A stretch of 52,680 nt of DNA from Gemmatimonadales bacterium. Its GTDB lineage: Bacteria; Gemmatimonadota; Gemmatimonadetes; Gemmatimonadales; GWC2-71-9. Under the pieces are notes generated by a model, which saw only the letters and a list, made by a program, of their open reading frames with translations, made no database searches and was not told the DNA's origin. A program made the position numbers and the translations under genes. Below are positions 22,389-35,566 of the stretch, piece by piece; the stretch's first letter is position 1, and every line of letters begins with the position of its first letter. Where the stretch lies: the NCBI GenBank assembly GCA_035601435.1, contig DATNOH010000264.1, positions 1 to 52,680 on the forward strand, read 5' to 3'.

Positions 22389-22796
22389 TCACGCTCCCGC
22401 ATCGAACGTGTAGCACCACGCTTCACCCTCGAGCACGGTTTCTCCTGTCTGGCGCGCCACCCTGATCCTCAGCTGACACACCGGCTTCGATTCATGCACG
22501 CTCACGACCTCTGCCTCGGCGGTGATCGTGTCGCCGATGTACACCGGCGCGGTGAACTTCCAGTTTTGACTCAGGAATACGGTGCCCGGCCCGGGGAGGT
22601 CCATCGCCACCAGGGCGTGCAACAGGCCGGTGGTGAGCCCCCCTTGCACGACCAACTTCCCGAATTTGGTCCGGGCGACGAACTCGGGATCGAAGTGGAG
22701 TGGGTTGTAATCGCCCGTGAGCTGCGCGAACGCGTTCACATGGTCGGGAGTGAGCGTGAGACTGCGGGATGCCCGCTCGCCCACGGCGACCTTCAT
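22389..22796 (-). CDS. MaoC-like hotdog-fold (R)-specific enoyl-CoA hydratase/dehydratase
   Basis: Start reset to ATG 22796 (MKVAVGERASRSLTLTPDHV...). GDYNPLHFD motif. ATGA overlap with the upstream hydrolase. The stop directly abuts the convergent UbiA stop. Confidence 0.85.
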   Translation of the reverse strand: MKVAVGERASRSLTLTPDHVNAFAQLTGDYNPLHFDPEFVARTKFGKLVVQGGLTTGLLHALVAMDLPGPGTVFLSQNWKFTAPVYIGDTITAEAEVVSVHESKPVCQLRIRVARQTGETVLEGEAWCYTFDAGA

Positions 22797-23836
22797 CGAG
22801 TCCGCTCCAGCGCCGCAACGAAGGGCGCGAAGTACTGCTTCCAGACAGCCGCCGCCGTGTGCGTGCCGTGGCCTCGCGTCCGCTCGCTCGTGGGAATCAG
22901 GATATAGCGGGCCCGCGGCACTGTGGGAATCAGCCGCTCCATGAGCCCGAGCTCCGGAGGGTTGATGAAGTCGTCGGCCGAGTTGATCGCGAGCACCGGC
23001 GCGGTGATGCGATCGAGCGCCGAGCTCGGATCGTAGTCGCGCGAGGCGTCCACCTGGTACACGAGATCGTTGGCGTCGGTCTCGGCGAAGCGCGTGTCGA
23101 GCCAGCGAGCGATGTAGGCGTCGGCCGCGTCGCGCGTTGGTGCGGATCGCTGGAGCTGCAGGGGACTCGACCCCGCCGTGAACAGCAGCTGGAGTGCCGC
23201 CCGGAGGCCGCGGGGCTGGCTCGTGTAGTCGCCGCTCTTCCAATCGGGATCGGTCTTGATGTCGTCGATGATCATCCTGCGCCACATGCGGTTCCGCCCC
23301 GCGATCTGCGTCGGGATGCACGCGAGCGGGACCACCCCATCCATGACCTCCGGATACCGCTCCGCCCAGAGCCAGCTGTGCATGCAGCCCATCGATGTGC
23401 CCATCACCAGGAGCAGGTGGTCGACGTGGAGCCCGTCGGTCACGAGCCGGTATTGGGCAGCCACCATGTCCTCATAGGCGTAGCGTGGGAATCGGGCCCG
23501 CAGCCCGTCGCTCGGCTTGGAGGAGCCACCGTGTCCGATGTTATCGGGCAGGATGAGGTAGTGCGTGGCGGTATCGAGCGGCTGGCCGGGGCCGTACAGC
23601 TCGCCTGCGAATACCGGCGATAGAAACTGCCGGCCCGATCCGCCGGTGCCGTGCAGCACCAGGACGGCGTTGCGCACCGTGCCGGCGGCGTTGCGACGGG
23701 GGTGGCCCAGCGTCCGGTAGTGCAGCCGCAACTCGGGCAACACCTCGCCGCTCGCGAATCGGAAATTCTTGATGACGAAGCTGCCGGTGTCCCCCTGTGC
23801 CGCCAGCGCGGCGAGGAGGAAGAGCGCCGGGCTCAT
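22793..23836 (-). CDS. Alpha/beta hydrolase, MetX (homoserine O-acetyltransferase)-like
   Basis: 347 aa. FRFASGEVLPELRLHYRTLG...NAVLVLHGTGGSG resembles a MetX N-terminus. Nucleophile elbow GTSMGCM. Short hydrophobic N-terminus. Confidence 0.85.
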   Translation of the reverse strand: MSPALFLLAALAAQGDTGSFVIKNFRFASGEVLPELRLHYRTLGHPRRNAAGTVRNAVLVLHGTGGSGRQFLSPVFAGELYGPGQPLDTATHYLILPDNIGHGGSSKPSDGLRARFPRYAYEDMVAAQYRLVTDGLHVDHLLLVMGTSMGCMHSWLWAERYPEVMDGVVPLACIPTQIAGRNRMWRRMIIDDIKTDPDWKSGDYTSQPRGLRAALQLLFTAGSSPLQLQRSAPTRDAADAYIARWLDTRFAETDANDLVYQVDASRDYDPSSALDRITAPVLAINSADDFINPPELGLMERLIPTVPRARYILIPTSERTRGHGTHTAAAVWKQYFAPFVAALERTR

Positions 23837-24360
23837 GCCAGATAGCGCTCCCGCAGGACCGCGAGGTGGTGGCGCTCGTGGCCGGCGATGATCCAGGCGA
23901 GCGCCCGCACGCTGATCGCGTTGTTGTTAGCCGTCCCCTGGCGCGCCAGGGCCTCCGCATCGAACCCTGAGAACAGGGCGATGGTCGCTCGCCGCACCGC
24001 GTCGAACTCGGCCGCGAGGTCCTTGAGAGGTCGCGCGTCGAACCGTCCTGCCGGCACCCATGCCTTCTCGTCGAACCCCGGGAGGGGGTTCGCGTCCGCC
24101 CGGCCGAACGTCAGCGCGCGGTAGCAGAAGACGCGCTCGCTGTCCGTCAGGTGGCCGAGCACTTCCTTGATGCTCCACTTGCCCGGCGCGTAGCGATGCA
24201 GCGCCTTCGCTTCCGACAAACCGGCGAGGAGCTGCTGCGTCTCGCGCCGCTGATCCTCGAGGACCTTCAGCAGGTTCCCCTTTGGGACCCTGGAGATGTA
24301 GGTCTCGTAGTACGCCAGGTATTCGGATGGCTCGGGGCGCGGGATCGCCGCGGCCGTCAT
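23833..24360 (-). CDS. DinB-family (four-helix-bundle, metal-dependent) protein
   Basis: Start reset to ATG 24360 (MTAAAIPRPEPSEYLAYYETYI...). WSIKEVLGHLTDSERVF and IIAGHERHHLAVL supply the DinB His triad. ATGA overlaps on both sides. Confidence 0.85.
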   Translation of the reverse strand: MTAAAIPRPEPSEYLAYYETYISRVPKGNLLKVLEDQRRETQQLLAGLSEAKALHRYAPGKWSIKEVLGHLTDSERVFCYRALTFGRADANPLPGFDEKAWVPAGRFDARPLKDLAAEFDAVRRATIALFSGFDAEALARQGTANNNAISVRALAWIIAGHERHHLAVLRERYLA

Positions 24361-24812
24361 GCGACCCTCCGCGGGCCCTTGGGCGTGCTCGCCTTTCCTT
24401 TGGCGGGTCCCGGGAACTTGGCGAGCCGCGCTTGGGCGTCCGGCATCTTCATGATGACCTGCTCCAGCTTCTCGAGGTAGCCCGGGTTGTTGAGTAGTGC
24501 CCGCACCTCGGTGAGGAACGGCCGGAGCCGCGCGTACACCATGATGTGCTCGCCGTTCGCGTCCGCGAACATCTGCTCGTCGATGGCGCCGTGTAGCACG
24601 AGCGTGGCCGCCATCCCCCAATAGGTGGTCACCATCCGGTAGAACGCGCTGCGCTTTCCGCGATACGCTTCGAGCACGTCCTCGGCCGTGCGGGGGCGGA
24701 ACTCCTCGCGAAACCAGGCCCGCGCCTTGCGCAGCAACGGCTCGCGGCGCATGTCGTACAGCTTGAGCAGCAGGTCGGCACTCTCGTATTTCGTGTTCAC
24801 GGGTGGCTCCAT
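24357..24812 (-). CDS. Hypothetical protein (helical, no recognised domain)
   Basis: Track ORF 24357..24827 starts at a TTG. I prefer ATG 24812 (MEPPVNTKYESADLLLKLYDMRREPLL...). Natural, non-Arg-rich composition. Sits inside the coupled operon. Confidence 0.65.
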   Translation of the reverse strand: MEPPVNTKYESADLLLKLYDMRREPLLRKARAWFREEFRPRTAEDVLEAYRGKRSAFYRMVTTYWGMAATLVLHGAIDEQMFADANGEHIMVYARLRPFLTEVRALLNNPGYLEKLEQVIMKMPDAQARLAKFPGPAKGKASTPKGPRRVA

Positions 24813-24831
24813 TCGGCAGGAGATCAAAAAG

Positions 24832-25194
24832 CTATGCGCGCGCCTGCACCGCGGCGACCCAGGCCCGCCAGGTCTCTTCCCCTGGGCCGACGGTCAGCTG
24901 CTGCTGGTGGCGGACCAGCGGCATCCGCAGGAGCAGGGGCTCCAGGGTGAGCTTGTCGAGCCAGCGTTCCTCGGAGAACAGGGCCGACTTGAGGCCGAGC
25001 TCGGTGAAGCGCTTCGCGTTGCGGTCGATCAGGCTCTGCACCCCGAACTGCTGCGCGAAACGCCGTAGCTCGCCGAGCGACGCGGCGCGCTCGTTCAGAT
25101 CCACGAAGTGCGTCTTGATACGACGCTCGGCGAAGAAGCGGAGCGCGGCCCGGGTGTCGGCGCTCTTGCGGACGCCGAAGATCTGGACTTCCAC
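24832..25194 (-). CDS. ArsC/Spx/YffB-family thioredoxin-fold protein lacking any cysteine
   Basis: 120 aa with a GTG start. VQIFGVRKSADTRAALRFFAERRI aligns with the IYGIKNCDTCRKA region of the ArsC/Spx family, but the Cys positions are Ser/Ala. I find no Cys in the whole protein. Its start overlaps the upstream stop by 1 nt (TAGTG). Confidence 0.8.
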   Translation of the reverse strand: MEVQIFGVRKSADTRAALRFFAERRIKTHFVDLNERAASLGELRRFAQQFGVQSLIDRNAKRFTELGLKSALFSEERWLDKLTLEPLLLRMPLVRHQQQLTVGPGEETWRAWVAAVQARA

Positions 25195-25976
25195 TAGCTG
25201 CCGCTCGAGAACCGCACCGCACCCAGGTCCACCAGGCCCTGCAGCGTGGCTTCGAGGTCCTCGACCCCGAGTCCCGCGACCCCGGCAATCTCCCCGAGGG
25301 TCCGCGTCCCGTCCGCGAGCTGCACGACGGCCGCCACATTTTCGTCACTGCGCGCGACCGCGACGCGTCCGTGCGCGGACCGCGCGACCAGCAGCTTCGT
25401 GCGCCGCTCCGGCGCCTGCGGCACGTCGGTCCACGGCTGGAGCAGTTTCGGCAGGATGCTCGGGAGATCGAAGGACAACTCCAAGAGCACCGTCCCTTCA
25501 ACGGTCGCCGGACGGAACCGCTCCCCGCTCCCCGCTCCCCCAGACGATGCGCCGTCCCGCCACACCCGCGGTCCCGCTTCGACGACCATCATCGCCTCTT
25601 CGTACCGCAGGAGATCGGCGAGATAGGGCACGGGCGCCTGGGCCGCCGCAACGTGAGCGGTCACGAGTCGCGCCACCGCTGCCGCCGTGTCGCGGCTGCC
25701 CAGAATGATCCCGGGGAGGAGCGCTTCGAAGGCGGGAGACTTGAGGATGCCCTCGGGCGCGCGGCCCGTGACGCGTGCGAGGGCGCGCGAGTACTTGAAG
25801 AAGTTGACGATGCGCTCGTGATAGAAATGGCGCGCCAAAAACCGCGCGTACCGCTCGACGCGGTCCGGATCGGCGAGCGCCCGGCGCCGCCACTCGAGCG
25901 AAGCGCGAAACGGTGCATCGGCGAGCGCGCGGATCACAGCGTCCTGCAGGGCGCGATCGTCCGGCAAACCGGTCAC
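25194..25976 (-). CDS. Hypothetical protein with a PqqD/RRE-like C-terminal segment; candidate partner of the DUF692 enzyme
   Basis: GTG start at 25976 in a GTGA overlap with the upstream stop (VTGLPDDRALQDAVIRAL...). The rest of track ORF 25194..26606 overlaps the upstream gene and is rejected. The N-terminal helical part (RYARFLARHFYHERIVNFF) is loosely reminiscent of DUF2063. The C-terminus VVQLADGTRTLGEIAGVAGLGVEDLEATLQGLVDLGAV resembles PqqD-type peptide-binding domains. Confidence 0.6.
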   Translation of the reverse strand: MTGLPDDRALQDAVIRALADAPFRASLEWRRRALADPDRVERYARFLARHFYHERIVNFFKYSRALARVTGRAPEGILKSPAFEALLPGIILGSRDTAAAVARLVTAHVAAAQAPVPYLADLLRYEEAMMVVEAGPRVWRDGASSGGAGSGERFRPATVEGTVLLELSFDLPSILPKLLQPWTDVPQAPERRTKLLVARSAHGRVAVARSDENVAAVVQLADGTRTLGEIAGVAGLGVEDLEATLQGLVDLGAVRFSSGS

Positions 25977-27175
25977 GGCGGGTTCGAGGGGGCGCAGGGG
26001 CGGAGCCGCACTACGGCCGTCCGCCCGTCGGAGACGACCTTCTGGCCGGAGACGTTGCGTCCCTCGGTGACCGCGCCGGGAAGGCGCATGTAGTCCAGCA
26101 GATCGCCGCATCCGCTCGCCTCGAGATCGTGTACCACGCGGTCTCGCTCCCAATCGATGTGCGACTCGATGCGATGGGTCGCTTGCGGCTCCCACGGCTT
26201 GAAAATCACCCCGACATCCTTGTTCGCGGCGCCGACCCAGACGAGCGAGAGACTGTCGAGCAGCCAGATTCGGATGTGATGACGAATCCGGACGTTCGGG
26301 CCCGCCAGCTCGTACGCGAGGTCCTGGGGCCGTCCCTCGAAGTACTGCGTGCTCACCGGAGCGGTGATCGCTGGCCTGCTCGCGATCGCGGCGGTCACCT
26401 CCCGCGTGACGCTGAGGAAAGACCGCTTCTGCGTCGGCAGCCAGCTGGCCGCCCGAAACGCGCTGTCGATCTCGGCGGCCGTACCCAGCAAGAGCACGTT
26501 GAACGGGTCGCCCGGCACGTCCCCTGTGCGGTTCTCGGAGCGGGGAACGAACTTCGGCAAGTCCGGCATCTCGGTCAGCTCGCGATGTGCCGTCAGGGGG
26601 TCGCACCGGTCCGGACCCGGGAGAACGAGGGGCTGGGTGAGTCGGATGCCGCCCGTTTCACCCGCGAGAATGCGCATCGGAGGCCCCCGGCGGATGAGCG
26701 AGAAGCCGCCGAGCACCGCTACAACCCCGGCGTCGAGGTCGGCCGCAGCCGCGACGCCTGCTGGCATGAGCTTCCTGCCGACGCCGCCGATGGACGTCCT
26801 GCCGCTGTAGACGAGCCCGGAATCGGTAACCGCGCCCGGCTTGGCGTACTCGAGCGTGTCGAGCAGACCGGAGATCGCGACCCAACGCGACGGGCGCACT
26901 TCCAGCGAGTCGAACGCCAGCCCCAGCCGGCCGTGCCGACCGAACCGCCCCCCGCCCTTGGAGATCACGATTCGGCCCTTCGCGCGGACGTAAGGCGGGA
27001 CCAGGACGCAGGAATCCTGCACCAACGCCCCCATCGTCTGCACCAGCACCCCTGTCCCCACGGTGTCCCGGCCGCTCGTGATGCGCTGCACAAAACGGAT
27101 CGGTATGCGCGTGCCCGCCGGCACCACGACGTCGGCCGAGAGCAGCGTGAGCAGCGTGATCGCGATCGCCCTCAC
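25973..27175 (-). CDS. Secreted protein with an LssY_C-like C-terminal domain
   Basis: GTG start at 27175 in a GTGA overlap with the DUF692 stop. Signal-like N-terminus VRAIAITLLTLLSA. C-terminal half DPFNVLLLGTAAEIDSAFRAASWLP...QYFEGRPQDLAYEL...RIRHHIRIW resembles the LssY C-terminal domain. Confidence 0.7.
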   Translation of the reverse strand: MRAIAITLLTLLSADVVVPAGTRIPIRFVQRITSGRDTVGTGVLVQTMGALVQDSCVLVPPYVRAKGRIVISKGGGRFGRHGRLGLAFDSLEVRPSRWVAISGLLDTLEYAKPGAVTDSGLVYSGRTSIGGVGRKLMPAGVAAAADLDAGVVAVLGGFSLIRRGPPMRILAGETGGIRLTQPLVLPGPDRCDPLTAHRELTEMPDLPKFVPRSENRTGDVPGDPFNVLLLGTAAEIDSAFRAASWLPTQKRSFLSVTREVTAAIASRPAITAPVSTQYFEGRPQDLAYELAGPNVRIRHHIRIWLLDSLSLVWVGAANKDVGVIFKPWEPQATHRIESHIDWERDRVVHDLEASGCGDLLDYMRLPGAVTEGRNVSGQKVVSDGRTAVVRLRPCAPSNPP

Positions 27176-27948
27176 AAGGCCTCCCGAATTCGCTCCACGC
27201 TGCGAAACAGCACCTCCGCCTTCAAGGAAGGCGAGAACGCGTCGAACGTGACGGCCTGGGCGCGGGGGCACTGGCTCACCGCATGGGCGGCGAAGGCAAG
27301 CATCTCGTCCGAGGGCTCGGCCGGCCCGATCCACGGACCCCCGAGGTCGTCGTCATGCTCGACGCCGGCGACGTGCAGCTCGACGACGTGCTCGAGCGGG
27401 AACTCCGCGAGCCAGCGCTCGGGCGCCATGTCGTGGTAGTGCGCCTCGAGCCACACGTGCGGCAGATCGAGCAGGAACCCGGCGCCCGTCGCCTCGAAGA
27501 AGCGACGCAGCCATACCGGCTCCGGCAGCTGACTCGCCTTGACGTCGAAGAACCCGGGGATGTTCTCCATCACGAGCGGCTGATCGAGGCGCGCCTGGAG
27601 CGCGCAGGCGTTACGGACGAAGCGCTCGAGGAACGCGTCCGTGTAGAGCGGCGGGAACACGTAGTTGAGACTGTACCCGCCGTCCTCGGTGTGGAGACAC
27701 TGAAAATGCTCGGCGACCCAGGGCGAATGATACAGGTCGGCGAGCGCGCGGGCACGCTGGATGGAGCGCTCGTCGAGCGGCTCGGAGAGCTGCCCCAAGT
27801 AGTCGTGCAGCAAGAGAGTGTAGCGCTCTTTGATCGCGGGCCACCACGGGTCCCTCGCCGCGGGAGGATCGGCCATGGCCAAGTGGTCGATCCCCTCCGC
27901 CCGGGCGAGTTCCGCTCCCAGGTGAGGGTTATAAAACGCCCCGACCAT
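27172..27948 (-). CDS. DUF692-family protein (multinuclear non-haem iron oxidase, MNIO; MbnB/TglH-like)
   Basis: 258 aa from ATG 27948 (the track start 27951 is a TTG). TIM-barrel-like family pattern: LLLHDYLGQLSEP, SPWVAEHFQCLHTEDG...LNYVFPPLYT, PLVMENIPGFF, GFLLDLPHVWLEAH, VVELHVAGVEHD, AVTFDAF. Confidence 0.85.
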   Translation of the reverse strand: MVGAFYNPHLGAELARAEGIDHLAMADPPAARDPWWPAIKERYTLLLHDYLGQLSEPLDERSIQRARALADLYHSPWVAEHFQCLHTEDGGYSLNYVFPPLYTDAFLERFVRNACALQARLDQPLVMENIPGFFDVKASQLPEPVWLRRFFEATGAGFLLDLPHVWLEAHYHDMAPERWLAEFPLEHVVELHVAGVEHDDDLGGPWIGPAEPSDEMLAFAAHAVSQCPRAQAVTFDAFSPSLKAEVLFRSVERIREAL

Positions 27949-29078
27949 CAAGTCCCCGTTGCGCGCCAGTCTAGTAACCCGCGTTGGGTGAGTTGGTCAC
28001 AAAAGACCTTGACCTGCGCCGCCACCATGGGGGACGCGTGAGCGTCCGTCCACAGGGCGGCGATCGTCTCCGCGCTCGTTGTGCCGTCCAGTCGCTCGAC
28101 GATAAACCGCTCACGCTCGCCCCAGGTGGCCGCCTCGCGCTTCAAATCATCGCTAGCGCCCGCTGGCGGAAACGCCGCCGCCACGATCTCGTCGATTTCC
28201 TGCAGTATGCTTGGGGCCAGGTGTTGGGTTCCTGCAAGGTTCTGGTCGACCTGCTCGCTGCTCCGCGCCCCCGCCAGGACGATACTCACGCCCGGGTGCG
28301 CGAGCACCCAAGCAAGCGCAAGACCCGACAGCGGCATGTCGAGCTCCCGGGCGATCGAGGCGAGCCGCTCGATCGCCGTCCGCCGGCGCTCGAACTCTCT
28401 GCCCTTGAACCAATAGATGTTGCGTCGGTGGTCGGCGGCGGTGAACTCAGGGAGCGCGGTGTACTTCCCGCTCAGCAGTCCCGCGGCGAGGGGCCGGTAT
28501 GCCAGGAACGCAATCCCACGCTCCCGGCACAGCGGCAGCTCCCGCTGCTCCACGTCCCGATCGAACAGGTTGTAGGCCCCCTGGTACGCGACCACGGGCG
28601 CGATCTCCAGCGCACGCGCGAGCTGGCGGTGGGTGGCATTACAGAGCCCCACCCCCAGGGCCTTTCCCTCCTCCTGCAGCGCGTGCAGTTGCTCGAGCCG
28701 CCCCTCCCAGCCTTCGAGCGCTTCGTGCAGCTGAATCAGATCCACATAGTCTGTCGCCAGCCGCCGCAGCGATGCCTCGAGGGCGCGGCGCGGATCGTCG
28801 CGCGGGCCGACCTTGGTGGCGATGGCGACGCGATCGCGGTCGGCCTGGAGGGCGCGACCCAGCAGGATTTCGGACGCGCCGTCGCCGTACGTAGGGGCGG
28901 TGTCGAAGAAGGTGATGCCGCGCTCGAGGGCGCGGCGGACGGTCGCGAGGCGGTCGGCTTCGGCCGAGGCAGCGCCCCACGCCGTGCCCCCCACCGCCCA
29001 GGCCCCGAACCCCAGGCGGGGTCCAGAGGTCAGGAAACGCAGCGGGGGCCCGACGTCTGTCCGGGCCCCCGGGCGCAT
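27948..29078 (-). CDS. Aldo/keto reductase fused to a ~75-aa PqqD/RRE-like C-terminal extension
   Basis: 376 aa. AKR core with the catalytic tetrad contexts FFDTAPTYGDG (D, Y), IATKVG (K) and IQLHEA (H). The core ends near ILQEIDEIV (about residue 300). The extra tail ERFIVERLDGTTSAETIAALWTDAHASPMVAAQVKVFCDQLTQRGLLD follows. GGGAG RBS 13 nt after the small ORF's stop. Confidence 0.85.
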   Translation of the reverse strand: MRPGARTDVGPPLRFLTSGPRLGFGAWAVGGTAWGAASAEADRLATVRRALERGITFFDTAPTYGDGASEILLGRALQADRDRVAIATKVGPRDDPRRALEASLRRLATDYVDLIQLHEALEGWEGRLEQLHALQEEGKALGVGLCNATHRQLARALEIAPVVAYQGAYNLFDRDVEQRELPLCRERGIAFLAYRPLAAGLLSGKYTALPEFTAADHRRNIYWFKGREFERRRTAIERLASIARELDMPLSGLALAWVLAHPGVSIVLAGARSSEQVDQNLAGTQHLAPSILQEIDEIVAAAFPPAGASDDLKREAATWGERERFIVERLDGTTSAETIAALWTDAHASPMVAAQVKVFCDQLTQRGLLDWRATGT

Positions 29079-29091
29079 CTGAACCGCTCCC

Positions 29092-29184
29092 TTAGGAGTG
29101 GCAGGTGGGCACCAGCTCCGCCGTCTCGACGATCTCGGGACGATGACAGCTGGGCACGAGCTCCTGCATCTCGACGATCTGCAT
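29092..29184 (-). CDS. Unannotated 30-aa ORF, candidate RiPP precursor peptide with two VP[ST]CH units
   Basis: My reverse-strand read is GAAGGAGGA TGT ATG CAG ATC GTC GAG ATG CAG GAG CTC GTG CCC AGC TGT CAT CGT CCC GAG ATC GTC GAG ACG GCG GAG CTG GTG CCC ACC TGC CAC TCC TAA. This translates to MQIVEMQELVPSCHRPEIVETAELVPTCHS. Strong RBS at 29188-29196. The stop lies 13 nt before the next gene. The ORF is below the size cut-off of the ORF track. Confidence 0.6.
   Translation of the reverse strand: MQIVEMQELVPSCHRPEIVETAELVPTCHS
29098..29181 (-). repeat. Tandem 39-nt coding repeat (period 45 nt) inside the small ORF
   Basis: Unit 1 (29143-29181) encodes QIVEMQELVPSCH. Unit 2 (29098-29136) encodes EIVETAELVPTCH. 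Conserved residues L, C and H use different synonymous codons in the two units (CTC/CTG, TGT/TGC, CAT/CAC). Confidence 0.7.
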
Positions 29185-29230
29185 ACATCCTCCTTCGCTA
29201 GGATACATCAGGAAGACGGCTATTGTGGGA

Positions 29231-29259
29231 ATCCTACGGGTTGCCGTCACACCCGTCAA
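29231..29259 (-). promoter_or_regulatory. Candidate sigma70-type promoter for the peptide/DUF692 operon
   Basis: On the minus strand: TTGACG (29254-29259), a 17-nt spacer, then TAGGAT (29231-29236), about 45 nt upstream of the peptide ATG. An ACGGGT/ACCCGT inverted repeat (29236-29241 and 29251-29256) lies in the spacer. Assigned by pattern only. Confidence 0.35.
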
Positions 29260-29280
29260 CCGGTAATTCTACAACCCTGC

Positions 29281-30219
29281 ATGATTCTGATTCATACGCT
29301 GTTGACAGAGAACGCACTCGCGGACGAATTCGTTTCCGCCTTCCATGAGAGGCGGCTGCCGGAGAAGTTCTTCTATTGGTTCCCCCTGTCGGTGCGCGCA
29401 TGGCTGGCCCTGTGCTCCGATGGCGCGTATCGCAACTTCGTGCGCTCGCGCTCGTTGATCGCGAGCTCCGGCGCGGAGCTGGCGCGCTTGTTTCCAGTCG
29501 CCCCGCTGGAAGTGGTGAGCCTCGGCGCGGGCCAGGGCGACAAGGACCTGCTGCTGCTCGACGCACTACGTGTGCGTGGCGCCCGGGTGTCGTACGTCCC
29601 CGTGGACACGAGCCAGGCCCTGCTGGAGATGGCGTGCGCAGGGGCGCTCGCTGCTGGCTTCCCAGCCCAGGGGATCAAGGCGGACTTCACGAACCCGGAC
29701 CACCTGAAGGCCCTCGCCGCCGAGCCCGAGACGCCGCCCCGGCTCGTGCTGCTCATCGGGAACACGCTTGGCGCCTTCGACCCCATCGCCGAAGCGCGCG
29801 AGCTGGCGCGGCTGCTGCGGCCGGGGGACGCGCTCCTGGTGGACGGCGAGCTGTACGCCGGCGATGCCACGGTAGCCGGCTACGACAATCCCCTGAACCG
29901 CCGCTTCGCTTGGGCGCCGCTCAACGCCGTGGGCATTCGCGACGCAGACGGCGAGTTGGTGTTCGAAGCGGCCGACGATCCGCGCCTTCCCGGCCTGCAT
30001 CTGATCCCCAAGCACTTCCGGGCGAGCCGGGACGTAGAGGCCCTCCTCGGGGGCGAGGCCCTGCGCCTGGCGCGCGGCGAGCGGCTCGCCATGAATCACT
30101 CGTATAAGTACGCCGCGGACACTTTCCTTCGGATTCTCTCCGAGGCCGGGCTCGCGGAGCGCTGGCAGGGACGGAGCGACGACCAGCGGTTTCTCATGAC
30201 TCTGGTCGCTCCTCGGTGA
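29281..30219 (+). CDS. EgtD-fold (Methyltransf_33, histidine N-alpha-methyltransferase-like) SAM-dependent methyltransferase, divergent member
   Basis: Start reset to ATG 29281 (MILIHTLLTENALADEF...). Blocks match EgtD as I recall it: LPEKFFYW, VVSLGAGQGDKDLLLLDAL, YVPVDTSQ, ADFTNPDHL, LLIGNTLGAFDP, LRPGDALLVDGEL, YDNPLNRRFAWAPLNAVG, MNHSYKY. The EYYPTRTE-type loop is not conserved. No RBS; the gene may be leaderless. Confidence 0.8.
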   Translation: MILIHTLLTENALADEFVSAFHERRLPEKFFYWFPLSVRAWLALCSDGAYRNFVRSRSLIASSGAELARLFPVAPLEVVSLGAGQGDKDLLLLDALRVRGARVSYVPVDTSQALLEMACAGALAAGFPAQGIKADFTNPDHLKALAAEPETPPRLVLLIGNTLGAFDPIAEARELARLLRPGDALLVDGELYAGDATVAGYDNPLNRRFAWAPLNAVGIRDADGELVFEAADDPRLPGLHLIPKHFRASRDVEALLGGEALRLARGERLAMNHSYKYAADTFLRILSEAGLAERWQGRSDDQRFLMTLVAPR

Positions 30220-30968
30220 CCCCGGCGCTCGAAGTACGCGGGCTCGGCTACCGATTGCCGGGAACGGGGAAAGGGGACTCGGGAAACGGACGCTTCCTCG
30301 TGCGGGACGTCTCTTTTTCCGTCGGCGCCGGAGAGACGTTGGTACTGCTGGGCCGGAGCGGCTCCGGGAAGACCACTACCCTCAAGCTCATCAACCGCCT
30401 GCTCGAGCCGACTTCCGGCGACGTGCGGGTGGCGGGGGAGCGCGCGGCCGACCTGCCGGTGACCCGTTTGCGGCGCCGGATCGGCTACGTGATTCAGGAG
30501 GTGGGCCTGTTCCCCCATTTCACGGTGGAGCGGAACGTGGGGCTCGTCCCACGGCTCGACGCGTGGTCGCCGGCGCGCATCGCCGCGCGGGTGCGCGAGC
30601 TGCTCGCGCTCGTGGGGCTCGACCCCGACACCTTCGTGCGGCGCTATCCGCACGAGTTGTCCGGGGGGCAGCGGCAGCGCGTGGGCGTGGCGCGCGCCCT
30701 GGCCGCCGACCCGCCGCTGCTCCTGCTCGATGAGCCGTTCGGCGCGCTCGATCCGATCACGCGGGTGGAGCTGCAGCGCGAGTTCGCGGCGCTCGAGGGG
30801 CGGATCGGCAAAGCCATGGTCTTCGTCACGCACGATGTGCGCGAGGGGCTGCTGCTGGGCACCCACATCGGGCTCATGCTGCAGGGTCGGCTCGCGTTTC
30901 TCGGCACGCCTGACGACTTCCGTCGGTCGGACAACCCGGAATGCCGGGCGTTCATGGCCGCGGCATGA
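30216..30968 (+). CDS. ABC transporter ATP-binding protein (osmoprotectant/betaine OpuB/OpuC type)
   Basis: 250 aa. Walker A GRSGSGKTT, signature LSGGQRQRVGVARAL, Walker B LLLLDEPF. GTGA overlap with the methyltransferase stop. Confidence 0.9.
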   Translation: MTPALEVRGLGYRLPGTGKGDSGNGRFLVRDVSFSVGAGETLVLLGRSGSGKTTTLKLINRLLEPTSGDVRVAGERAADLPVTRLRRRIGYVIQEVGLFPHFTVERNVGLVPRLDAWSPARIAARVRELLALVGLDPDTFVRRYPHELSGGQRQRVGVARALAADPPLLLLDEPFGALDPITRVELQREFAALEGRIGKAMVFVTHDVREGLLLGTHIGLMLQGRLAFLGTPDDFRRSDNPECRAFMAAA

Positions 30969-31603
30969 GTCTGTTGAGCTTCTACGCGCGTAACTCCCAG
31001 GAAGTCCTGGGGCTCGTGGGCCAGCACGTGTATCTGGTGGCGATCTCCACGGGCGCGGCCATCGTAATCGGCGTGCCGCTGGGTGTCTTGCTCACGCGGC
31101 GGCCGGGGTGGCGGGGCCCCGTGCTGGGTGTGGCCAATGTATTCCAGACGGTGCCGAGTCTCGCCCTGTTCGGGTTCCTCATTCCCCTGCCCTTCATCGG
31201 CGGCATCGGCGCGAGGACGGCTATCGTCGCGCTCGTCCTGTACGCCCTCCTGCCCATCGTTCGCAACACCTATGAGGGGATCGCCGGCGTGGACCCGGCG
31301 GTGCGCGAGGCGGGGCGCGGGATGGGCATGACCGACTGGCAGCTGCTGGCACAGGTCGAATTGCCGCTCGGCTTCGGCGTGATCCTGGCAGGGGTGCGGG
31401 TCGCGACGGTCGTAAGCGTAGGCACGGCGACGATCGCGGCGGCCATCGGCGCGGGCGGTTTGGGCGTGTACATCTTCCGGGGCGTGGCGGTGGTGGACGA
31501 TACGCTGATCCTCGCCGGGGCGCTGCCGGCCGCGCTGATGGCGCTCGCGGCGGACGGGCTGCTGGGAGTCGCGGAGCGGCGGTTCGCGTGGCGGGCGAAA
31601 TGA
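30965..31603 (+). CDS. ABC transporter permease (betaine/choline OpuBB/OpuCB type)
   Basis: Start set to ATG 30965 (ATGA overlap; MSLLSFYARNSQEVLGLVGQH...). EAA-like loop VREAGRGMGMTDWQLL. Five to six TM helices. Confidence 0.9.
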   Translation: MSLLSFYARNSQEVLGLVGQHVYLVAISTGAAIVIGVPLGVLLTRRPGWRGPVLGVANVFQTVPSLALFGFLIPLPFIGGIGARTAIVALVLYALLPIVRNTYEGIAGVDPAVREAGRGMGMTDWQLLAQVELPLGFGVILAGVRVATVVSVGTATIAAAIGAGGLGVYIFRGVAVVDDTLILAGALPAALMALAADGLLGVAERRFAWRAK

Positions 31604-32478
31604 GTCCTCACCCCCTGTCCCGCTGCCTCGGTCTGCTCGCGCTGCTACTCACCGGATGCGCTCAGCGCGACCGGATCGTGGTGGGCTCCAAGAACTTCAC
31701 CGAGTCCGATCTGCTGGGGGAGATCGTGGCGCAGCAAATCGAGCGGCGCACGGCGCTCCCGGTGGAGCGACGCTTCCACCTGGGCGGCACGTTCGTGTGC
31801 CACCAGGCCATCACGTCGGGCCAAATCGATCTCTACGTCGAGTACACGGGGACCGCCTACACCGCCGTATTGAAGCGCGCGCCCGTCGCCGATCGCGACA
31901 GCGTCTATCGGACGGTCGCGCGCGACTATGCGCAGCGGTTCGGGCTCGCGTGGGGCGAGCCGTTCGGCTTCAACAACACGTTCGCCATCACCGTGCGGCG
32001 GCGCGACGCGACGCGCGACGGGCTGAAGCACATCTCCGACCTGGCGCGCGTCGCCCCGCGCTGGAAGGCCGGATTCGGTTACGAGTTCCTGGAGCGCGCC
32101 GACGGGTTCCGCGGACTCGCGAGTGTGTACGGACTGCGGTTCGCCGCTCCACCCACCGCGATGGACCTGGGGCTGACGTATCGGGCCCTGGCGGAGGGGA
32201 AGGTGGACGTGATCGCCGGTAACTCGACGGACGGCCAGATCCAGGCCCTGGACCTCCTGGTCCTGGAAGACGACCGGCACTACTTCCCGCCGTATGAAGC
32301 TGCCCCGGTCATCCGCCAGGCAGCGCTCACACGACACCCCGAGATCGCCGCGGCCCTGGCTCAGCTCGCGGGCAAGATTTCGGACGCCGAGATGCGACGG
32401 CTCAACGCCCTCGCGGACGTCGAGCACCGGGACATCGCGACCATCGCGCGCGACTGGCTGCGCGCCACCCTGCCGTGA
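31600..32478 (+). CDS. Betaine-type ABC substrate-binding lipoprotein (OpuBC/OpuCC-like)
   Basis: Start set to ATG 31600 (ATGA overlap). Lipobox LLTGC. IVVGSKNFTESDLLGEIVAQ, IDLYVEYTGTAY and LEDDRHYFPPYEAAPV are typical of glycine-betaine-family binding proteins. Confidence 0.9.
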   Translation: MSPHPLSRCLGLLALLLTGCAQRDRIVVGSKNFTESDLLGEIVAQQIERRTALPVERRFHLGGTFVCHQAITSGQIDLYVEYTGTAYTAVLKRAPVADRDSVYRTVARDYAQRFGLAWGEPFGFNNTFAITVRRRDATRDGLKHISDLARVAPRWKAGFGYEFLERADGFRGLASVYGLRFAAPPTAMDLGLTYRALAEGKVDVIAGNSTDGQIQALDLLVLEDDRHYFPPYEAAPVIRQAALTRHPEIAAALAQLAGKISDAEMRRLNALADVEHRDIATIARDWLRATLP

Positions 32479-33338
32479 GGGTGGGGCCTCGCACGCAGCT
32501 GGTGCTTGCCGCCGCGTGCTTTTCGACGGCGGGGGCCGCGATCAAGTGGACCAACTTCGGCGCGTGGCAGGTTGCGGCGGTGCGGGCGCTCGTGGCCCTC
32601 GTGGCGATCCTCGCGCTGATTCCCGAAGCGCGCAGCCGTTGGAGCTGGCGCGTGGCGCTGGTGGGCGTGGCCTACGCGGCAGCGGGGCTGCTGTTCGTGT
32701 TCGCGAACAAGCTGACCACGGCGGCCAACACCGTATTCCTGCAGGCGACGAACCCGCTGTTCGTGGTCGCGCTCGCGCCATGGCTGTTGCGCGAGCGCGT
32801 GCGAGGGGCGGACCTCGCGTTCATGGGTGTCCTGGCCGCAGGCCTGGGGTTGCTGTTCGTCGGCGGGCGGCGACACTTCGCGACCGCGCCGGACCCCTTC
32901 CTCGGCAACGTGCTGGCGGCGGGGAGCGCGGTGGCATGGGCGTTCACGGTCACGGGGTACCGCTGGCTGGCGCGCCAACGAGGCGCCGACCATGGCCCCA
33001 TCGCGGCCGCGGCGGCGTGCGGCAACCTGTTCGTGTTCCTGGTGTGCCTGCCGGGGGCGCTCCCGCTCGCGGCTGGGCGTGCCACCGACTGGCTGATCGT
33101 GGTCTATCTCGGCGTGTTCCAGCTCGGCCTCGCCTACGTGTTCCTGTCGCGCGCCATCACCCGGGTACCGGCACTCGAGGCCTCGCTGTTCCTCTTGGTC
33201 GAGCCGGTGCTGAGTCCGGTGTGGGCCTGGCTTGCGCACGGCGAGACGCCGGGCCCGCTCGCGGTAGTCGGGGGAGCCGTCATCCTGACGGCGACGGCCC
33301 TCAAAGCTTGGACCGACAACCAAATGGTGGCGGCGTGA
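32475..33338 (+). CDS. EamA/DMT-family transporter
   Basis: 287 aa, ten hydrophobic helices in two EamA-like halves. GTGA overlap with the binding-protein stop. Confidence 0.85.
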   Translation: MRVGPRTQLVLAAACFSTAGAAIKWTNFGAWQVAAVRALVALVAILALIPEARSRWSWRVALVGVAYAAAGLLFVFANKLTTAANTVFLQATNPLFVVALAPWLLRERVRGADLAFMGVLAAGLGLLFVGGRRHFATAPDPFLGNVLAAGSAVAWAFTVTGYRWLARQRGADHGPIAAAAACGNLFVFLVCLPGALPLAAGRATDWLIVVYLGVFQLGLAYVFLSRAITRVPALEASLFLLVEPVLSPVWAWLAHGETPGPLAVVGGAVILTATALKAWTDNQMVAA

Positions 33339-34564
33339 GCTCCAGTGCGGTCATCCGGACCTACTACATCATCACAGGACTCTTCAACCTGGCGATGTCG
33401 CTCATCTGGGGCATCGATACGCTCTTCAAGATGAGCGCCGGGCTCGACATCCAGCAGGTGCTGCTCACGAACGCCGCGTTCACCGTCGGATCGATGGTGT
33501 TCGAGGTCCCCACCGGCGTCGTGGCCGACACGTTGGGCCGACGCGTATCTCTGCTCCTCTGCCTTGGCACGCTGTTCGTGACCACGCTCCTCTATGTGAC
33601 CATCGCGTGGCGCGGCTGGGGATTCTCGGCGTTCGTGTGGGTCTCAGTGCTCCTCGGACTGGGCTACACGTTCTACACCGGCGCGGTGGACGCTTGGCTG
33701 GTCGACGCCCTCAAAGCCACGGGCTACACGGAACCGCTCGAGCGGGTGTTCTCTCGGGGACAGATGTTGTTCGGGGCCGCGATGCTCGCGGGCACCATCG
33801 GCGGGGGGCTGCTGGGCCAGATCCGCTTGGACATCCCGTACGTAGTGCGAGCCGCGCTGGTCGTACCGCTGTTCTGGGTGGCGTGGTTCCGGATGCCGGA
33901 GGTCGGGTTCACGCCGCGCGCGTTGCAGCTGCGGCGCGTGCCCGCCGAGCTGCGGCGCGTGTTTGTCGAGGGGCTGCGGTACGGACTGAGCAATCCCGTC
34001 GTCCGGCCCGTGATGTTCGCGTCGTTCGTCTCGATGAGCTTCATGATCTTCGGCTTCTACAGCTGGCAGCGTTACTTCCTGGATCTCTTAGGACGGAATC
34101 TCGTCTGGGTGGATGGCGTGATCAGCGCGCTGGTCGGGTTGAGCCTGATCGTGGGCAACGCGCTCGTCGCGCCCCTCTCGCGCGTGGTGCGGACGCGGAC
34201 CGGAGTGCTGATGGTCTCGGTGGCGATCCAGGCGGTGCTGGCGGTGGCGTGCGGCCTGCTCACGAACTTTTTCGTGGTCGTGTCGCTGTACCTGCTGTAC
34301 GGCGTGGCCGTCGGGCTCGCGCTGCCCGTGAAGCAGGCCTATCTCAACGCCCACATCCCCTCGGCCCAACGAGCGACGATCATCTCGCTCGACTCGATGT
34401 TCGCGAGCAGTGGCGGCGCGCTCGGGCAGACCGTGTGGGGCTGGGTCGCGCGCACGCGCTCGATCGGCACGGCGTGGGCGTGGAGCGGGCTGACGCTGGT
34501 GCTCGGGATTCCACTCTACTGGTTGGCGCGCAGGAGAGACCAGCTTCACGACGCGATAGACTGA
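33335..34564 (+). CDS. MFS transporter
   Basis: GTG start at 33335 (GTGA overlap with the EamA stop; VSSSAVIRTYYIITGLFNL...). Motif A GVVADTLGRRVSLL. Twelve predicted TM helices. The first 347 codons of track ORF 32294..34564 overlap other genes and are rejected. Confidence 0.85.
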   Translation: MSSSAVIRTYYIITGLFNLAMSLIWGIDTLFKMSAGLDIQQVLLTNAAFTVGSMVFEVPTGVVADTLGRRVSLLLCLGTLFVTTLLYVTIAWRGWGFSAFVWVSVLLGLGYTFYTGAVDAWLVDALKATGYTEPLERVFSRGQMLFGAAMLAGTIGGGLLGQIRLDIPYVVRAALVVPLFWVAWFRMPEVGFTPRALQLRRVPAELRRVFVEGLRYGLSNPVVRPVMFASFVSMSFMIFGFYSWQRYFLDLLGRNLVWVDGVISALVGLSLIVGNALVAPLSRVVRTRTGVLMVSVAIQAVLAVACGLLTNFFVVVSLYLLYGVAVGLALPVKQAYLNAHIPSAQRATIISLDSMFASSGGALGQTVWGWVARTRSIGTAWAWSGLTLVLGIPLYWLARRRDQLHDAID

Positions 34565-35128: not shown

Positions 35129-35566
35129 CTAACGCTGCTTGAACTTGGGTAACTCGCCGTGGTGACGCTTCAAGTACTCCTCGTAAATGTGGCTGTCCGT
35201 GTAATCCCGAATCTCGCTGATCCGATCGCTCCGAAACTTGAGGATGCAGCAGGTCCGCTGGTCCATCACGTCCTTCGGGTCGGACTTCAACCAAGAGCGC
35301 TCGCGGAGCTCCACGATCACCCGATCGTCCGCCTCGTACCAATCGCGCCAGACGTCTTCGGATCCCCAGTCGGCGGCGCCCAGTCCGGCCTCGCGGCTCC
35401 AGAGGGCCTCGAGCACCGCCTTGCGGCCGCGCCATTCGCCCCCGATCCGGCGAGCCCCAGCCACCCAATAGACGATGTCATCGGTGAAGTAGCTCCCCGT
35501 TTCCGCTCGGTTCCCTGCGAACAGCGCCCGCTCGTACGCCCTGGCTACGTCGAGACGGCGGCTCAT
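35129..35566 (-). CDS. SnoaL/NTF2-like family protein
   Basis: Start reset to ATG 35566 (MSRRLDVARAYERALFAGNRAETGSYFTDDIVYWV...), in an ATGA overlap with the upstream stop. About 145 aa with an NTF2-like pattern. Confidence 0.8.
   Translation of the reverse strand: MSRRLDVARAYERALFAGNRAETGSYFTDDIVYWVAGARRIGGEWRGRKAVLEALWSREAGLGAADWGSEDVWRDWYEADDRVIVELRERSWLKSDPKDVMDQRTCCILKFRSDRISEIRDYTDSHIYEEYLKRHHGELPKFKQR

What the first reader, a model, noticed from the sequence alone, without database searches (positions are those of the whole stretch)
29281..34564. Divergent EgtD-fold methyltransferase coupled to a betaine-type ABC transporter plus EamA and MFS transporters
The 312-aa protein follows the EgtD (histidine N-alpha-trimethylase, Methyltransf_33) fold block by block, compared with M. 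smegmatis EgtD as I recall it. The substrate-loop motif EYYPTRTE is replaced by AYRNFVRSRS, so the substrate may differ.

It is chained by GTGA/ATGA overlaps to five genes: an OpuB/OpuC-type ATPase, permease and lipoprotein binding protein, then an EamA transporter and an MFS transporter.

I see no egtB, egtC or egtE-like gene in the window.

Established knowledge: this ABC family transports quaternary amines, and some members (EgtUV) import ergothioneine.

Speculation, held at low confidence: the neighbouring peptide has two Cys-His dipeptides and the operon contains a DinB-fold protein (EgtB carries a DinB-like domain). The two divergent operons might therefore cooperate in thio-histidine or betaine-like chemistry, or in exporting the peptide product.
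Basis: partly seen in the sequence, partly recalled or inferred. Interest (0 to 1): 0.58.

Follow-up and report, generated by a model that had tools for sequence, protein, structure and literature searches.

The report
Methyltransferase-transporter arm of peptide cluster
A soil bacterium (Gemmatimonadales) has an enzyme that looks like the first enzyme of ergothioneine synthesis but is not it; it is a fixed partner of a neighbouring, undescribed iron-enzyme cluster that modifies a small Cys-His repeat peptide, and here it is joined to a betaine-type importer and two efflux pumps.

Summary
Six plus-strand genes, 29281-34564, are chained by 4-nt GTGA/ATGA overlaps. They encode an EgtD-fold methyltransferase (MT), an OpuB/C-type ATPase, a permease, a lipoprotein binding protein, an EamA transporter and an MFS transporter.

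The MT is not EgtD. It scores 67.5 bits against a cut-off of 290.9 and falls in a separate clade. The residues that bind the amino-acid carboxylate are kept. The histidine-recognition elements are changed (Asn166, Glu282) or lost (Thr213 loop). I found no egtB, egtC, egtD or egtE in this 87%-complete genome.

The main result is linkage. In 301 Gemmatimonadota genomes the MT ortholog (16) and the neighbouring MNIO enzyme (15) occur in the same genomes. Nearly all of about 150 further loci show the MT head-to-head with the repeat peptide (…ELxP[S/T]CH)n, an aldo-keto-reductase fusion and the MNIO. That includes three Actinomycetota cassettes that lack the transporters.

The MT is therefore a core gene of this undescribed peptide cluster, and the transporters are lineage-specific additions. 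MT homologs at 49-55% identity exist without an MNIO, and one of these is paired with the ABC genes.

Most likely the MT N-methylates a small amino-acid-like product that is exported and taken up again. This chemistry is inferred, not shown.

The scan reached the same conclusion earlier on other DNA (e1-2371778).

The parts
29281..30219 (+). EgtD-fold SAM methyltransferase of a distinct Methyltransf_33 subfamily. It is a core gene of the peptide cassette.
   Evidence: Pfam PF10017 scores 86.7 bits, and TIGR03438 scores 67.5 against a cut-off of 290.9. The model has pLDDT 97 and TM 0.81-0.85 to EgtD. The subfamily clade has support 99, separate from EgtD at 100. It lies head-to-head with the peptide gene in nearly all loci.
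30216..30968 (+). ABC ATPase of the betaine/proline/choline type, 250 aa. Only the nucleotide-binding part of the proV model is matched.
   Evidence: ABC_tran scores 128.6 bits. TIGR01186 proV scores 246 bits, matching model positions 7-219 of 363. It overlaps the MT gene by GTGA.
30965..31603 (+). Single ABC permease. The likely start is ATG 30965; the ORF listing starts at 30941.
   Evidence: BPD_transp_1 scores 69 bits, and the best NCBIfam hits are choline and ProW permeases. There is an ATGA overlap at 30965.
31588..32478 (+). Lipoprotein substrate-binding protein, OpuAC family, cluster F-III. The likely start is ATG 31600.
   Evidence: OpuAC scores 214 bits. The best PDB relatives are OpuBC-derived sensors, OpuCC and EgtUC, at E 1e-50 to 1e-60. 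The putative ligand residues K35, F37, Y86, T89, N130, F132, E166, R170, N212 and Y236 are invariant or nearly so in 74 orthologs.
32475..33338 (+). EamA/DMT transporter, a putative metabolite exporter. It is a variable accessory gene.
   Evidence: EamA scores 95 bits, and TIGR00950 (carboxylate/amino acid/amine transporter) scores 65 bits. It is missing from many orthologous loci.
33335..34564 (+). MFS efflux-type transporter.
   Evidence: MFS_1 scores 68.8 bits, and the nearest NCBIfam models are Tet(40)/TetA(P)-type efflux pumps. It is present in most Gemmatimonadota loci and sometimes sits directly after the MT (L102, L112).
29185..29280 (.). Short divergent intergenic region (96 nt) shared by the two operons.
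   Evidence: Read from the sequence. The head-to-head arrangement is conserved in Gemmatimonadota and Actinomycetota.
29092..29184 (-). 30-aa precursor peptide with two repeats of the form IVExxELxP[S/T]CH.
   Evidence: Translation. The orthologous peptides have 2, 3 or 4 repeats.
27948..29078 (-). Aldo/keto reductase with a PqqD/RRE-like C-terminal tail.
   Evidence: Aldo_ket_red scores 208.8 bits. The PqqD hit is weak (E 0.006, residues 325-369). It is conserved in the cassette.
27172..27951 (-). MNIO (DUF692) oxidase.
   Evidence: PF05114 scores 94.7 bits. The ApyH and BufB models score far below their cut-offs. It occurs in the same genomes as the MT.
22793..23836 (-). Alpha/beta-hydrolase with a hydrophobic N-terminus, possibly secreted. 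It is a recurrent accessory gene of the cassette.
   Evidence: Abhydrolase_1 scores 56 bits. It is 70% identical to the gene inserted between the reductase and the MNIO in L046-type loci. It is present in 35 of 77 loci with enough upstream DNA.
23833..27334 (-). Lineage-specific accessory genes: LssY_C, two unassigned ORFs, DUF4760 and DinB_2.
   Evidence: Pfam hits. They are found only in a subset of Gemmatimonadales loci and are absent from the short cassettes and from Actinomycetota.

Best explanation
The six-gene operon is the second arm of an undescribed MNIO (DUF692) peptide-modification cluster.

**Shown**
- The MT has the full EgtD fold but belongs to a separate subfamily.
- It co-occurs with, and sits head-to-head against, the precursor (…ELxP[S/T]CH)n, an aldo-keto-reductase/RRE fusion and the MNIO, in two phyla.
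- The ABC importer, EamA and MFS genes are additions found in Gemmatimonadota.

**Inferred**
- The MNIO and the reductase modify the Cys-His units.
- A small amino-acid-like unit that still carries a free alpha-carboxylate and amine is released by peptidases. In many loci a cassette alpha/beta-hydrolase is a candidate for this step.
- The MT N-methylates that unit, probably to a betaine.
- The MFS and EamA pumps export the product.
- The ProX/OpuC-like binding protein, whose carboxylate-binding Lys/Thr/Arg residues are intact and whose aromatic cage is altered, recaptures it or its unmethylated precursor.

This make, export and re-import logic resembles small metallophores or protective thiols more than osmolyte uptake.
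For: **Not EgtD**
- TIGR03438 scores 67.5 bits against a cut-off of 290.9.
- Bona fide EgtDs of the same phylum score 315-373 bits.
- In the quick tree the subfamily (support 99) is separate from EgtD (support 100).

**Fold and active site**
- TM 0.81-0.85 to EgtD.
- Tyr39, Tyr56, Tyr206 and Ser284, which contact the carboxylate and C-alpha, are kept. Asn166 is Ala, Glu282 is Asn or Ser, Met252 is Lys, and the Thr213 loop is deleted (residue roles, except Met252, from PMC8593015).

**Linkage**
- The MT ortholog occurs in 16 of 301 Gemmatimonadota genomes and the MNIO ortholog in 15. These are the same genomes; in the 16th the contig ends inside the reductase gene.
- All 14 loci fetched from those genomes show the head-to-head arrangement, as do 72 of the 80 GTDB loci (1 more is cut at the MT; 7 lack it).
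- In soil metagenome contigs the peptide is present in 68 of 71 informative loci, the MNIO in 49 of 49, and the ABC trio in 52 of 55.
- Three Actinomycetota cassettes keep MT, peptide, reductase and MNIO in three different housekeeping contexts, without the transporters.

**Small-molecule substrate**
- MT homologs with the same motif residues exist without any MNIO.
- One homolog is fused to an ATP-grasp ligase.
- One is operonic with the same ABC type without an MNIO (L127).

**Binding protein**
- K35, T89 and R170 correspond to EgtU K242, T296 and R379, which bind the carboxylate.
- Cage residues Y86, F132, Y236 and N130 are conserved.
- N212 replaces a cage Tyr in 73 of 74 orthologs.
Against: - There is no experimental data, and the chemistry of the MNIO step is unknown.
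- The minimal cassette in Actinomycetota has no dedicated protease and no transporter.
- MT homologs at 49-55% identity occur in genomes where the MNIO query finds nothing. Their substrate therefore need not come from the peptide.
- One 74%-identical MT (L179) has no cassette beside it, and one locus (L193) has lost the peptide gene.
- The binding protein is close to ordinary glycine-betaine/proline-betaine binders and could simply import osmoprotectants.
- My mapping of binding-site residues rests on motif spacing and sequence alignment, not on superposed coordinates.
Confidence: 0.55

Rival explanations
1. The MT acts on the peptide itself. It methylates the N-terminal amine of the processed or modified peptide, or a side chain, as tailoring methyltransferases do in many RiPP clusters. 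The transporters move the peptide product.
For: The co-occurrence and head-to-head linkage fit this reading equally well. The minimal cassette has no protease. Replacing Asn166 with Ala could make room for a larger N-substituent.
Against: - The EgtD-type closed pocket and its alpha-carboxylate triad (Tyr56, Tyr206, Ser284) are conserved.
- Homologs with the same motifs live in genomes without the MNIO.
- The partner binding protein is a small-betaine type with carboxylate-binding Lys/Thr/Arg residues.
- MFS and EamA pumps usually carry small molecules (established knowledge).
Confidence: 0.2
2. The MT and ABC genes form an independent betaine (compatible-solute) synthesis and uptake module. 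It merely sits beside the peptide cluster by descent or by joint transfer.
For: The binding protein is ProX/OpuC-like. An MT plus ABC pair occurs without an MNIO in an Armatimonadota MAG (L127). MT-only loci occur in several phyla.
Against: - In the 301 genomes sampled, MT and MNIO occur in the same genomes.
- The Actinomycetota cassettes keep the MT but not the ABC genes, in three different genomic contexts.
- Only the nucleotide-binding part of the proV ATPase model is matched. From my own knowledge, osmoregulated Opu/ProU ATPases carry a C-terminal CBS module in that unmatched part.
- Two efflux pumps in the same operon are not expected for osmolyte accumulation.
Confidence: 0.12
3. The MT is a diverged but genuine histidine N-alpha-trimethylase. 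It makes hercynine for ergothioneine, and the ABC system is an EgtUV-like ergothioneine importer.
For: The fold is EgtD-like and databases name the protein 'L-histidine N(alpha)-methyltransferase'. EgtUC is among the binding protein's PDB relatives, at E 4e-52.
Against: - It scores far below the EgtD cut-off and lies in a separate clade.
- The His-recognition elements Asn166, Thr213 and Glu282 are not conserved.
- No EgtB, EgtC or EgtE is found in the genome.
- The cassette genomes tested lack canonical EgtD, while other Gemmatimonadota have it.
- The EgtU signature residues Gly244 and Phe293 are Phe and Tyr here, and the permease and binding domain are not fused.
Confidence: 0.03

Closest known systems
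EgtD, L-histidine N-alpha-methyltransferase of ergothioneine biosynthesis (M. smegmatis, M. tuberculosis; PDB 4pio, 4uy7, 7scf)
   Same: The two-domain fold is the same over the full length (TM 0.81-0.85). The SAM-binding GxGxG region is shared. Tyr39, Tyr56, Tyr206 and Ser284, which hold the substrate's C-alpha and carboxylate, are conserved, as are Gly161 and Thr163.
   Different: - Identity is only 21-23%.
- It scores 67.5 bits against a cut-off of 290.9 and lies in a separate clade.
- Asn166 is Ala, Glu282 is Asn or Ser, Met252 is Lys, and the Thr213 loop is deleted.
- It has no egtA, egtB, egtC or egtE partners. Its partner is an MNIO peptide cluster instead.
MNIO RiPP clusters that yield small or metal-binding products (TglHI/3-thiaglutamate 'pearlin' logic; bufferins and oxazolins; methanobactin)
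   Same: A DUF692/MNIO enzyme sits next to a Cys-containing precursor. The repeated core units recall oxazolin precursors. A peptide used as a scaffold for a small product is the TglHI logic.
   Different: - The partner is an aldo-keto-reductase/RRE fusion, not MbnC, TglI or a DUF2063 protein.
- The precursor has almost no leader.
- An EgtD-fold methyltransferase is a core gene.
- A betaine-type ABC importer is attached.
- None of these features is mentioned in the main text of the 2025 MNIO landscape paper (PMC12452194).
ProX/OpuBC/OpuCC/EgtUC binding proteins (cluster F-III quaternary-amine SBPs)
   Same: It matches the OpuAC domain at 214 bits. Carboxylate ligands equivalent to EgtU K242, T296 and R379 are present, as are the cage positions Y86, F132, Y236 and N130.
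   Different: - One cage Tyr (EgtU Y419) is Asn212, in 73 of 74 orthologs.
- The EgtU signature residues Gly244 and Phe293 are Phe and Tyr.
- The binding protein is a separate lipoprotein, not a permease fusion.
- Only the nucleotide-binding part of the proV ATPase model is matched.
Opine-metallophore operons (staphylopine cnt; pseudopaline with an EamA-type exporter)
   Same: The operon logic is the same: a biosynthetic enzyme, an MFS or EamA exporter, and a binding-protein-dependent importer. This comparison rests on my own knowledge and was not tested here.
   Different: The enzymes are not homologous, the importer family differs, and no metal link has been shown here.

Membership tests
EgtD (NCBIfam TIGR03438 equivalog) | Score at or above the curated cut-off of 290.9 bits | tested here: not met
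   It scores 67.5 bits. Whole-genome search finds no match over the cut-off. As a positive control, five other Gemmatimonadota score 315-373 bits.
EgtD (NCBIfam TIGR03438 equivalog) | Histidine-recognition elements Asn166, Thr213 (water to imidazole) and Glu282 | tested here: not met
   Alignment with five bona fide EgtDs shows Asn166 as Ala, Glu282 as Asn or Ser, and the Thr213 loop deleted. Residue roles come from PMC8593015.
EgtD (NCBIfam TIGR03438 equivalog) | Alpha-carboxylate and C-alpha contacts Tyr39, Tyr56, Tyr206 and Ser284 | tested here: met
   These correspond to Y32, Y50, Y201 and S274, which are invariant or nearly so in the subfamily.
EgtD (NCBIfam TIGR03438 equivalog) | Falls within the EgtD clade | tested here: not met
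   In the quick ML tree the EgtD clade has support 100 and the subfamily clade has support 99; the two are separate. The careful tree search did not finish.
EgtD (NCBIfam TIGR03438 equivalog) | Pathway partners EgtB, EgtC and EgtE present in the genome | tested here: not met
   None reaches its cut-off in the 87%-complete MAG. EanB and OvoA were not searched.
Pfam Methyltransf_33 (PF10017) / EgtD fold | Gathering score reached and fold matched | tested here: met
   It scores 86.7 bits against a cut-off of 23. TM to EgtD is 0.81-0.85 and the model has pLDDT 97.
Quaternary-amine binding proteins (OpuAC, cluster F-III) | OpuAC domain plus a full aromatic cage | tested here: inconclusive
   The domain scores 214 bits. 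Three aromatic cage residues are kept, but the fourth is Asn212. The mapping rests on motif spacing against the published EgtU and OpuBC numbering.
EgtUV ergothioneine importer | Invariant Gly244, Phe293 in place of Tyr, and a fused permease-binding domain | tested here: not met
   Phe37 and Tyr86 occupy those positions in 74 of 74 orthologs. The permease and binding protein are separate genes. The criteria come from the EgtU paper.
MNIO (DUF692) RiPP biosynthetic cluster | An MNIO enzyme adjacent to a conserved short precursor, with the MT operon co-occurring with them | tested here: met
   PF05114 scores 94.7 bits. Precursor repeats are conserved. MT and MNIO occur in the same genomes, 16 and 15 of 301, and synteny is conserved.
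MNIO (DUF692) RiPP biosynthetic cluster | Demonstrated modification of the peptide, and of the MT's substrate | not testable with these tools
   This needs heterologous expression and mass spectrometry.

The most novel reading that the evidence does not exclude
The cassette may be a ribosomal route to a thio-histidine or other sulfur-bearing amino-acid betaine, analogous to ergothioneine. In this reading the MNIO and reductase rework each Cys-His unit, the peptide is broken down, and the EgtD-fold MT trimethylates the released residue. Dedicated pumps and a betaine-type importer then cycle the product. Genomes that carry the cassette would use this route in place of EgtB, EgtC, EgtD and EgtE.
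Probability: 0.12. Interest if true: 0.9.

Novelty: new variant of a known kind. Interest (0 to 1): 0.62.

Why it matters
EgtD-fold enzymes are known only as makers of amino-acid betaines from free amino acids. MNIO enzymes are known only as peptide modifiers. A tight, cross-phylum pairing of the two suggests a pathway in which a ribosomal peptide feeds a methylated small molecule. In abundant uncultured soil Gemmatimonadales this pairing is extended by export pumps and a betaine-type importer. That combination of enzyme classes is absent from the papers I could search.

The finding also corrects database annotation: these proteins are widely labelled 'L-histidine N(alpha)-methyltransferase'.

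It gives concrete, cheap experiments: four genes to co-express, and one binding protein to screen.

Tried and rejected
- **Canonical ergothioneine synthesis** is rejected. It fails on score, clade and residues, and no partner genes were found.
- **An EgtUV-type importer** is rejected on the signature residues and on architecture.
- **The DinB-fold gene as a link to EgtB** is rejected. It is not part of the conserved core.
- **Conserved neighbours around distant MT homologs (L121-L127).** None emerged apart from the ABC genes in L127.
- **Metagenome scan aimed at a basal MT clade.** It returned only Gemmatimonadales-type cassettes. These are useful as replicates but say nothing about other clades.
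- **Selenocysteine (TGA) at the Cys position**, a lead from note e1-4683043. I found no case in the roughly 180 loci held here.
- **Literature.** No paper holds both 'MNIO' and 'EgtD', or both 'multinuclear non-heme iron' and 'Gemmatimonad'. The main text of the MNIO landscape paper has no aldo-keto reductase, methyltransferase or betaine.
- Two alignments were too diverse for the search for related loci. The careful tree search did not finish, so the quick tree was used.

Full report
**Where the window comes from**

The window is a 52.7-kb contig with 64-70% G+C. It belongs to a 3.1-Mb, 87%-complete MAG. Close homologs carry the source names Gemmatimonadales or Gemmatimonadetes.

**The observation**

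ORF listing and Pfam/NCBIfam scans confirm six plus-strand genes:
- a 312-aa Methyltransf_33 protein (29281-30219)
- a 250-aa ABC ATPase of the betaine/proline/choline type, which matches only model positions 7-219 of the 363-position proV model
- one permease
- an OpuAC-family lipoprotein (lipobox LLTGC)
- an EamA transporter
- an MFS efflux-type transporter

All five junctions are 4-nt overlaps, GTGA or ATGA. After the MFS stop, by eye, an inverted repeat lies before a convergent gene.

On the other strand, 96 nt from the MT start, lies a 30-aa ORF with two Cys-His units. It is followed by an aldo/keto reductase with a weak PqqD-like tail, an MNIO (DUF692) enzyme, an LssY_C protein, unassigned ORFs, DUF4760 and DinB_2.

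**Is the methyltransferase an EgtD?**

In fold, yes. An AlphaFold model with mean pLDDT 97 matches EgtD structures at TM 0.81-0.85 over the full length. The next fold, AzeJ, reaches only 0.53.

In family membership, no.
- It scores 67.5 bits on the EgtD equivalog model, whose cut-off is 290.9.
- Real EgtDs from five other Gemmatimonadota score 315-373 bits with the same model. That also serves as a positive control.
- A search of 1.8 billion cluster representatives finds about 78 relatives at E of 1e-30 or better, then a drop to a cloud of other uncharacterised Methyltransf_33 proteins. None of the eight cloud members scanned reaches the EgtD cut-off.
- In a quick maximum-likelihood tree the subfamily forms a clade with support 99, apart from the EgtD clade with support 100. 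The careful search did not finish.

I aligned the subfamily with the five bona fide EgtDs and read the alignment against the residue roles given in PMC8593015.
- Kept: Tyr39, Tyr56, Tyr206 and Ser284, which contact the alpha-carboxylate and C-alpha, and also Gly161 and Thr163. Phe47 becomes Trp.
- Changed: Asn166, which binds the alpha-amine, is Ala. Glu282 is Asn or Ser.
- Met252 aligns with an invariant Lys. That Met252 helps set specificity is inferred from the M252V,E282A tryptophan-binding variant 4pip, not taken from the paper.
- Lost: the loop carrying Thr213, which positions the water bound to the imidazole.

My reading is that the enzyme still grips a free amino-acid backbone but has a different side-chain pocket. 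That pocket may be basic (Lys244, Arg207, Arg55). This rests on the sequence alignment, because I could not inspect the model coordinates.

**No canonical pathway**

No EgtB, EgtC, EgtD or EgtE reaches its cut-off in this genome. Five other cassette-bearing genomes also lack a canonical EgtD.

**Linkage to the peptide cluster: the main result**

- *Phylum sample.* In 301 Gemmatimonadota species genomes, MT orthologs (E of 1e-89 or better) occur in 16 and orthologs of the window's MNIO in 15. They are the same genomes. In the 16th (G042) the contig ends inside the reductase gene.
- *Fetched loci.* In all 14 loci I fetched, the MT is head-to-head with the peptide gene.
- *GTDB-wide scan.* This returned 80 loci. 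Of the 70 from Gemmatimonadota-type MAGs (one is labelled only 'uncultured bacterium'), 69 show the same arrangement; in the last (L115) the contig starts at the MT. So do three Actinomycetota MAGs at 58-63% identity.
- *Actinomycetota cassettes.* These consist only of MT, peptide, reductase fusion and MNIO. Two of them also carry a 255-aa protein with a faint DUF2063-type resemblance. They sit between different housekeeping genes: guaA and guaB in L119, sdhB in L117, and a Cys/Met-metabolism PLP enzyme in L118. They have no ABC, EamA or MFS genes.
- *Soil metagenome contigs.* The peptide is present in 68 of 71 informative loci, the MNIO in 49 of 49, and the ABC trio in 52 of 55.
- *Exceptions.* L193 has lost the peptide gene. 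L179 carries a 74%-identical MT with no cassette neighbours.
- *Second position in the tree.* The cassette-linked MT of G104, from another family at about 50% identity, sits elsewhere in the subfamily tree. There the peptide has four repeats and the ABC genes are rearranged.

The MT is therefore a core gene of the cassette. The transporters are lineage-specific additions.

**The precursor peptide**

The precursors are tandem repeats of (I/V)VExxELxP[S/T]CH. There are two repeats in the window's lineage, three or four in Actinomycetota and four in G104. There is almost no leader, and only one residue follows the last Cys-His.

**Methyltransferase homologs without the MNIO**

MTs at 49-55% identity occur in KSB1, Planctomycetota/Scalindua, Thermodesulfobacteriota, Lambdaproteobacteria, Saccharibacteria and Armatimonadota MAGs.
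- Their neighbours are heterogeneous.
- In five of these genomes the window's MNIO finds no relative.
- Their pocket motifs match those of the cassette MTs.
- In the Armatimonadota locus L127 the MT is followed by the same type of ATPase and by a permease/OpuAC gene, at 61% identity.
- One subfamily member is fused to an ATP-grasp ligase.

These facts favour a small-molecule substrate. They also make the MT the hub that pairs either with the MNIO cassette, with the ABC importer, or with both.

**The importer**

The binding protein's nearest solved relatives are OpuBC-derived sensors, OpuCC and EgtUC, all at E between 1e-50 and 1e-60. I mapped its residues by motif spacing onto the published EgtU residues.
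- Carboxylate ligands K35, T89 and R170 are present, as is E166.
- Cage residues Y86, F132, Y236 and N130 are present.
- The fourth cage tyrosine (EgtU Y419) is Asn212.
- The EgtU signature residues Gly244 and Phe293 are Phe37 and Tyr86. The paper describes that pattern for glycine-betaine ProX proteins.
- All these residues are invariant or nearly so in 74 orthologs.

It is therefore not an EgtU-type ergothioneine binder. It is a ProX/OpuC-like binder of a carboxylate-bearing amine with an unusual cage.

**Accessory genes**

A gene for an alpha/beta-hydrolase with a hydrophobic N-terminus (22793-23836, minus strand) is 70% identical to a gene inserted between the reductase and the MNIO in another group of loci. 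It is present in 35 of 77 loci with enough upstream DNA. It is a candidate processing enzyme. The DinB_2, DUF4760 and LssY_C genes are confined to part of the Gemmatimonadales.

**Interpretation**

- *Shown:* the gene content; that the MT has the EgtD fold but is not an EgtD; and its core status in the MNIO cassette.
- *Inferred:* the MT N-methylates a small, amino-acid-like product derived from the Cys-His units; the MFS and EamA pumps export it; and the ABC system recaptures it or its precursor.
- *Rivals:* methylation of the peptide itself; an unrelated osmolyte module; and genuine hercynine synthesis. I rate the last as very unlikely.

**Literature and earlier notes**

No paper in the library combines MNIO with EgtD. 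The main text of the 2025 MNIO landscape paper mentions no aldo-keto reductase, methyltransferase or betaine.

Earlier notes of this scan reached the same view of the peptide, the operon and the reductase on this window, and of the MT arm on other DNA. I re-derived these points independently here. The selenocysteine lead from one note was not seen in my loci.

**Caveats**

- Genomes G182 and G306 are flagged as unpublished. G182 is one of the 16 MT and 15 MNIO genomes. G306 holds L117, one of the three Actinomycetota cassettes. Counts that include them rest partly on them.
- G157, also unpublished, is only one of the weak, non-orthologous matches.
- Kin are not independent. The co-occurrence counts cover about eight genera plus two further lineages.

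Noticed in passing
window 22793-23836 (-); L046 7407-8558 (-): A gene for an alpha/beta-hydrolase (Abhydrolase_1, with a weak S33 aminopeptidase-type hit) that has a hydrophobic N-terminus recurs in the cassette at two positions. It sits either at the end of the long operon or between the reductase and the MNIO. The two copies are 70% identical, and the gene is present in 35 of 77 loci with enough flank. It is a candidate processing enzyme.
   Followed up: partly
L193 7750-8000: In this otherwise intact cassette (MT 91% identical) the peptide gene is missing. The reductase gene starts directly after the intergenic region.
   Followed up: partly
L179 1349-2362: An MT 74% identical to the window's sits on a 5-kb soil contig without the peptide, MNIO or ABC genes beside it. 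It is the only such case above about 58% identity.
   Followed up: partly
P0149 (740 aa, metagenomic protein): An ATP-grasp (RimK-like) domain is fused N-terminally to a member of this MT subfamily, at 43% identity. This hints at amino-acid or dipeptide ligation coupled to N-methylation. Its genomic context was not obtainable.
   Followed up: no
L119 8886-9562 (-): A gene for a PIN-domain protein and a 95-aa ORF, apparently a toxin-antitoxin pair, are inserted between the peptide gene and the reductase in one Actinomycetota cassette.
   Followed up: no
L122, L124, L126: Closely related MTs (short tree branches) occur in MAGs labelled Planctomycetota, Candidatus Scalindua and Lambdaproteobacteria. 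This points to a binning error or a recent transfer. Two of the loci share an argininosuccinate-lyase-like neighbour.
   Followed up: no
L121 3036-4034 (-) and 10001-10948 (+): This KSB1 contig carries two MT-subfamily genes 6 kb apart, with an AbiEi/AbiEii pair next to one of them.
   Followed up: no
window 35563-36690 (-): A Rieske [2Fe-2S] domain is fused to an NADPH-dependent FMN reductase domain, just downstream of the operon on the opposite strand. The 137-aa ORF at 34631-35044 has no Pfam match.
   Followed up: no
L047 10247-10441 (+); L117-L119: The repeat number of the precursor varies between 2, 3 and 4 across lineages. The ELxP[S/T]CH core stays fixed throughout, and the last repeat is always followed by a single residue.
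   Followed up: yes
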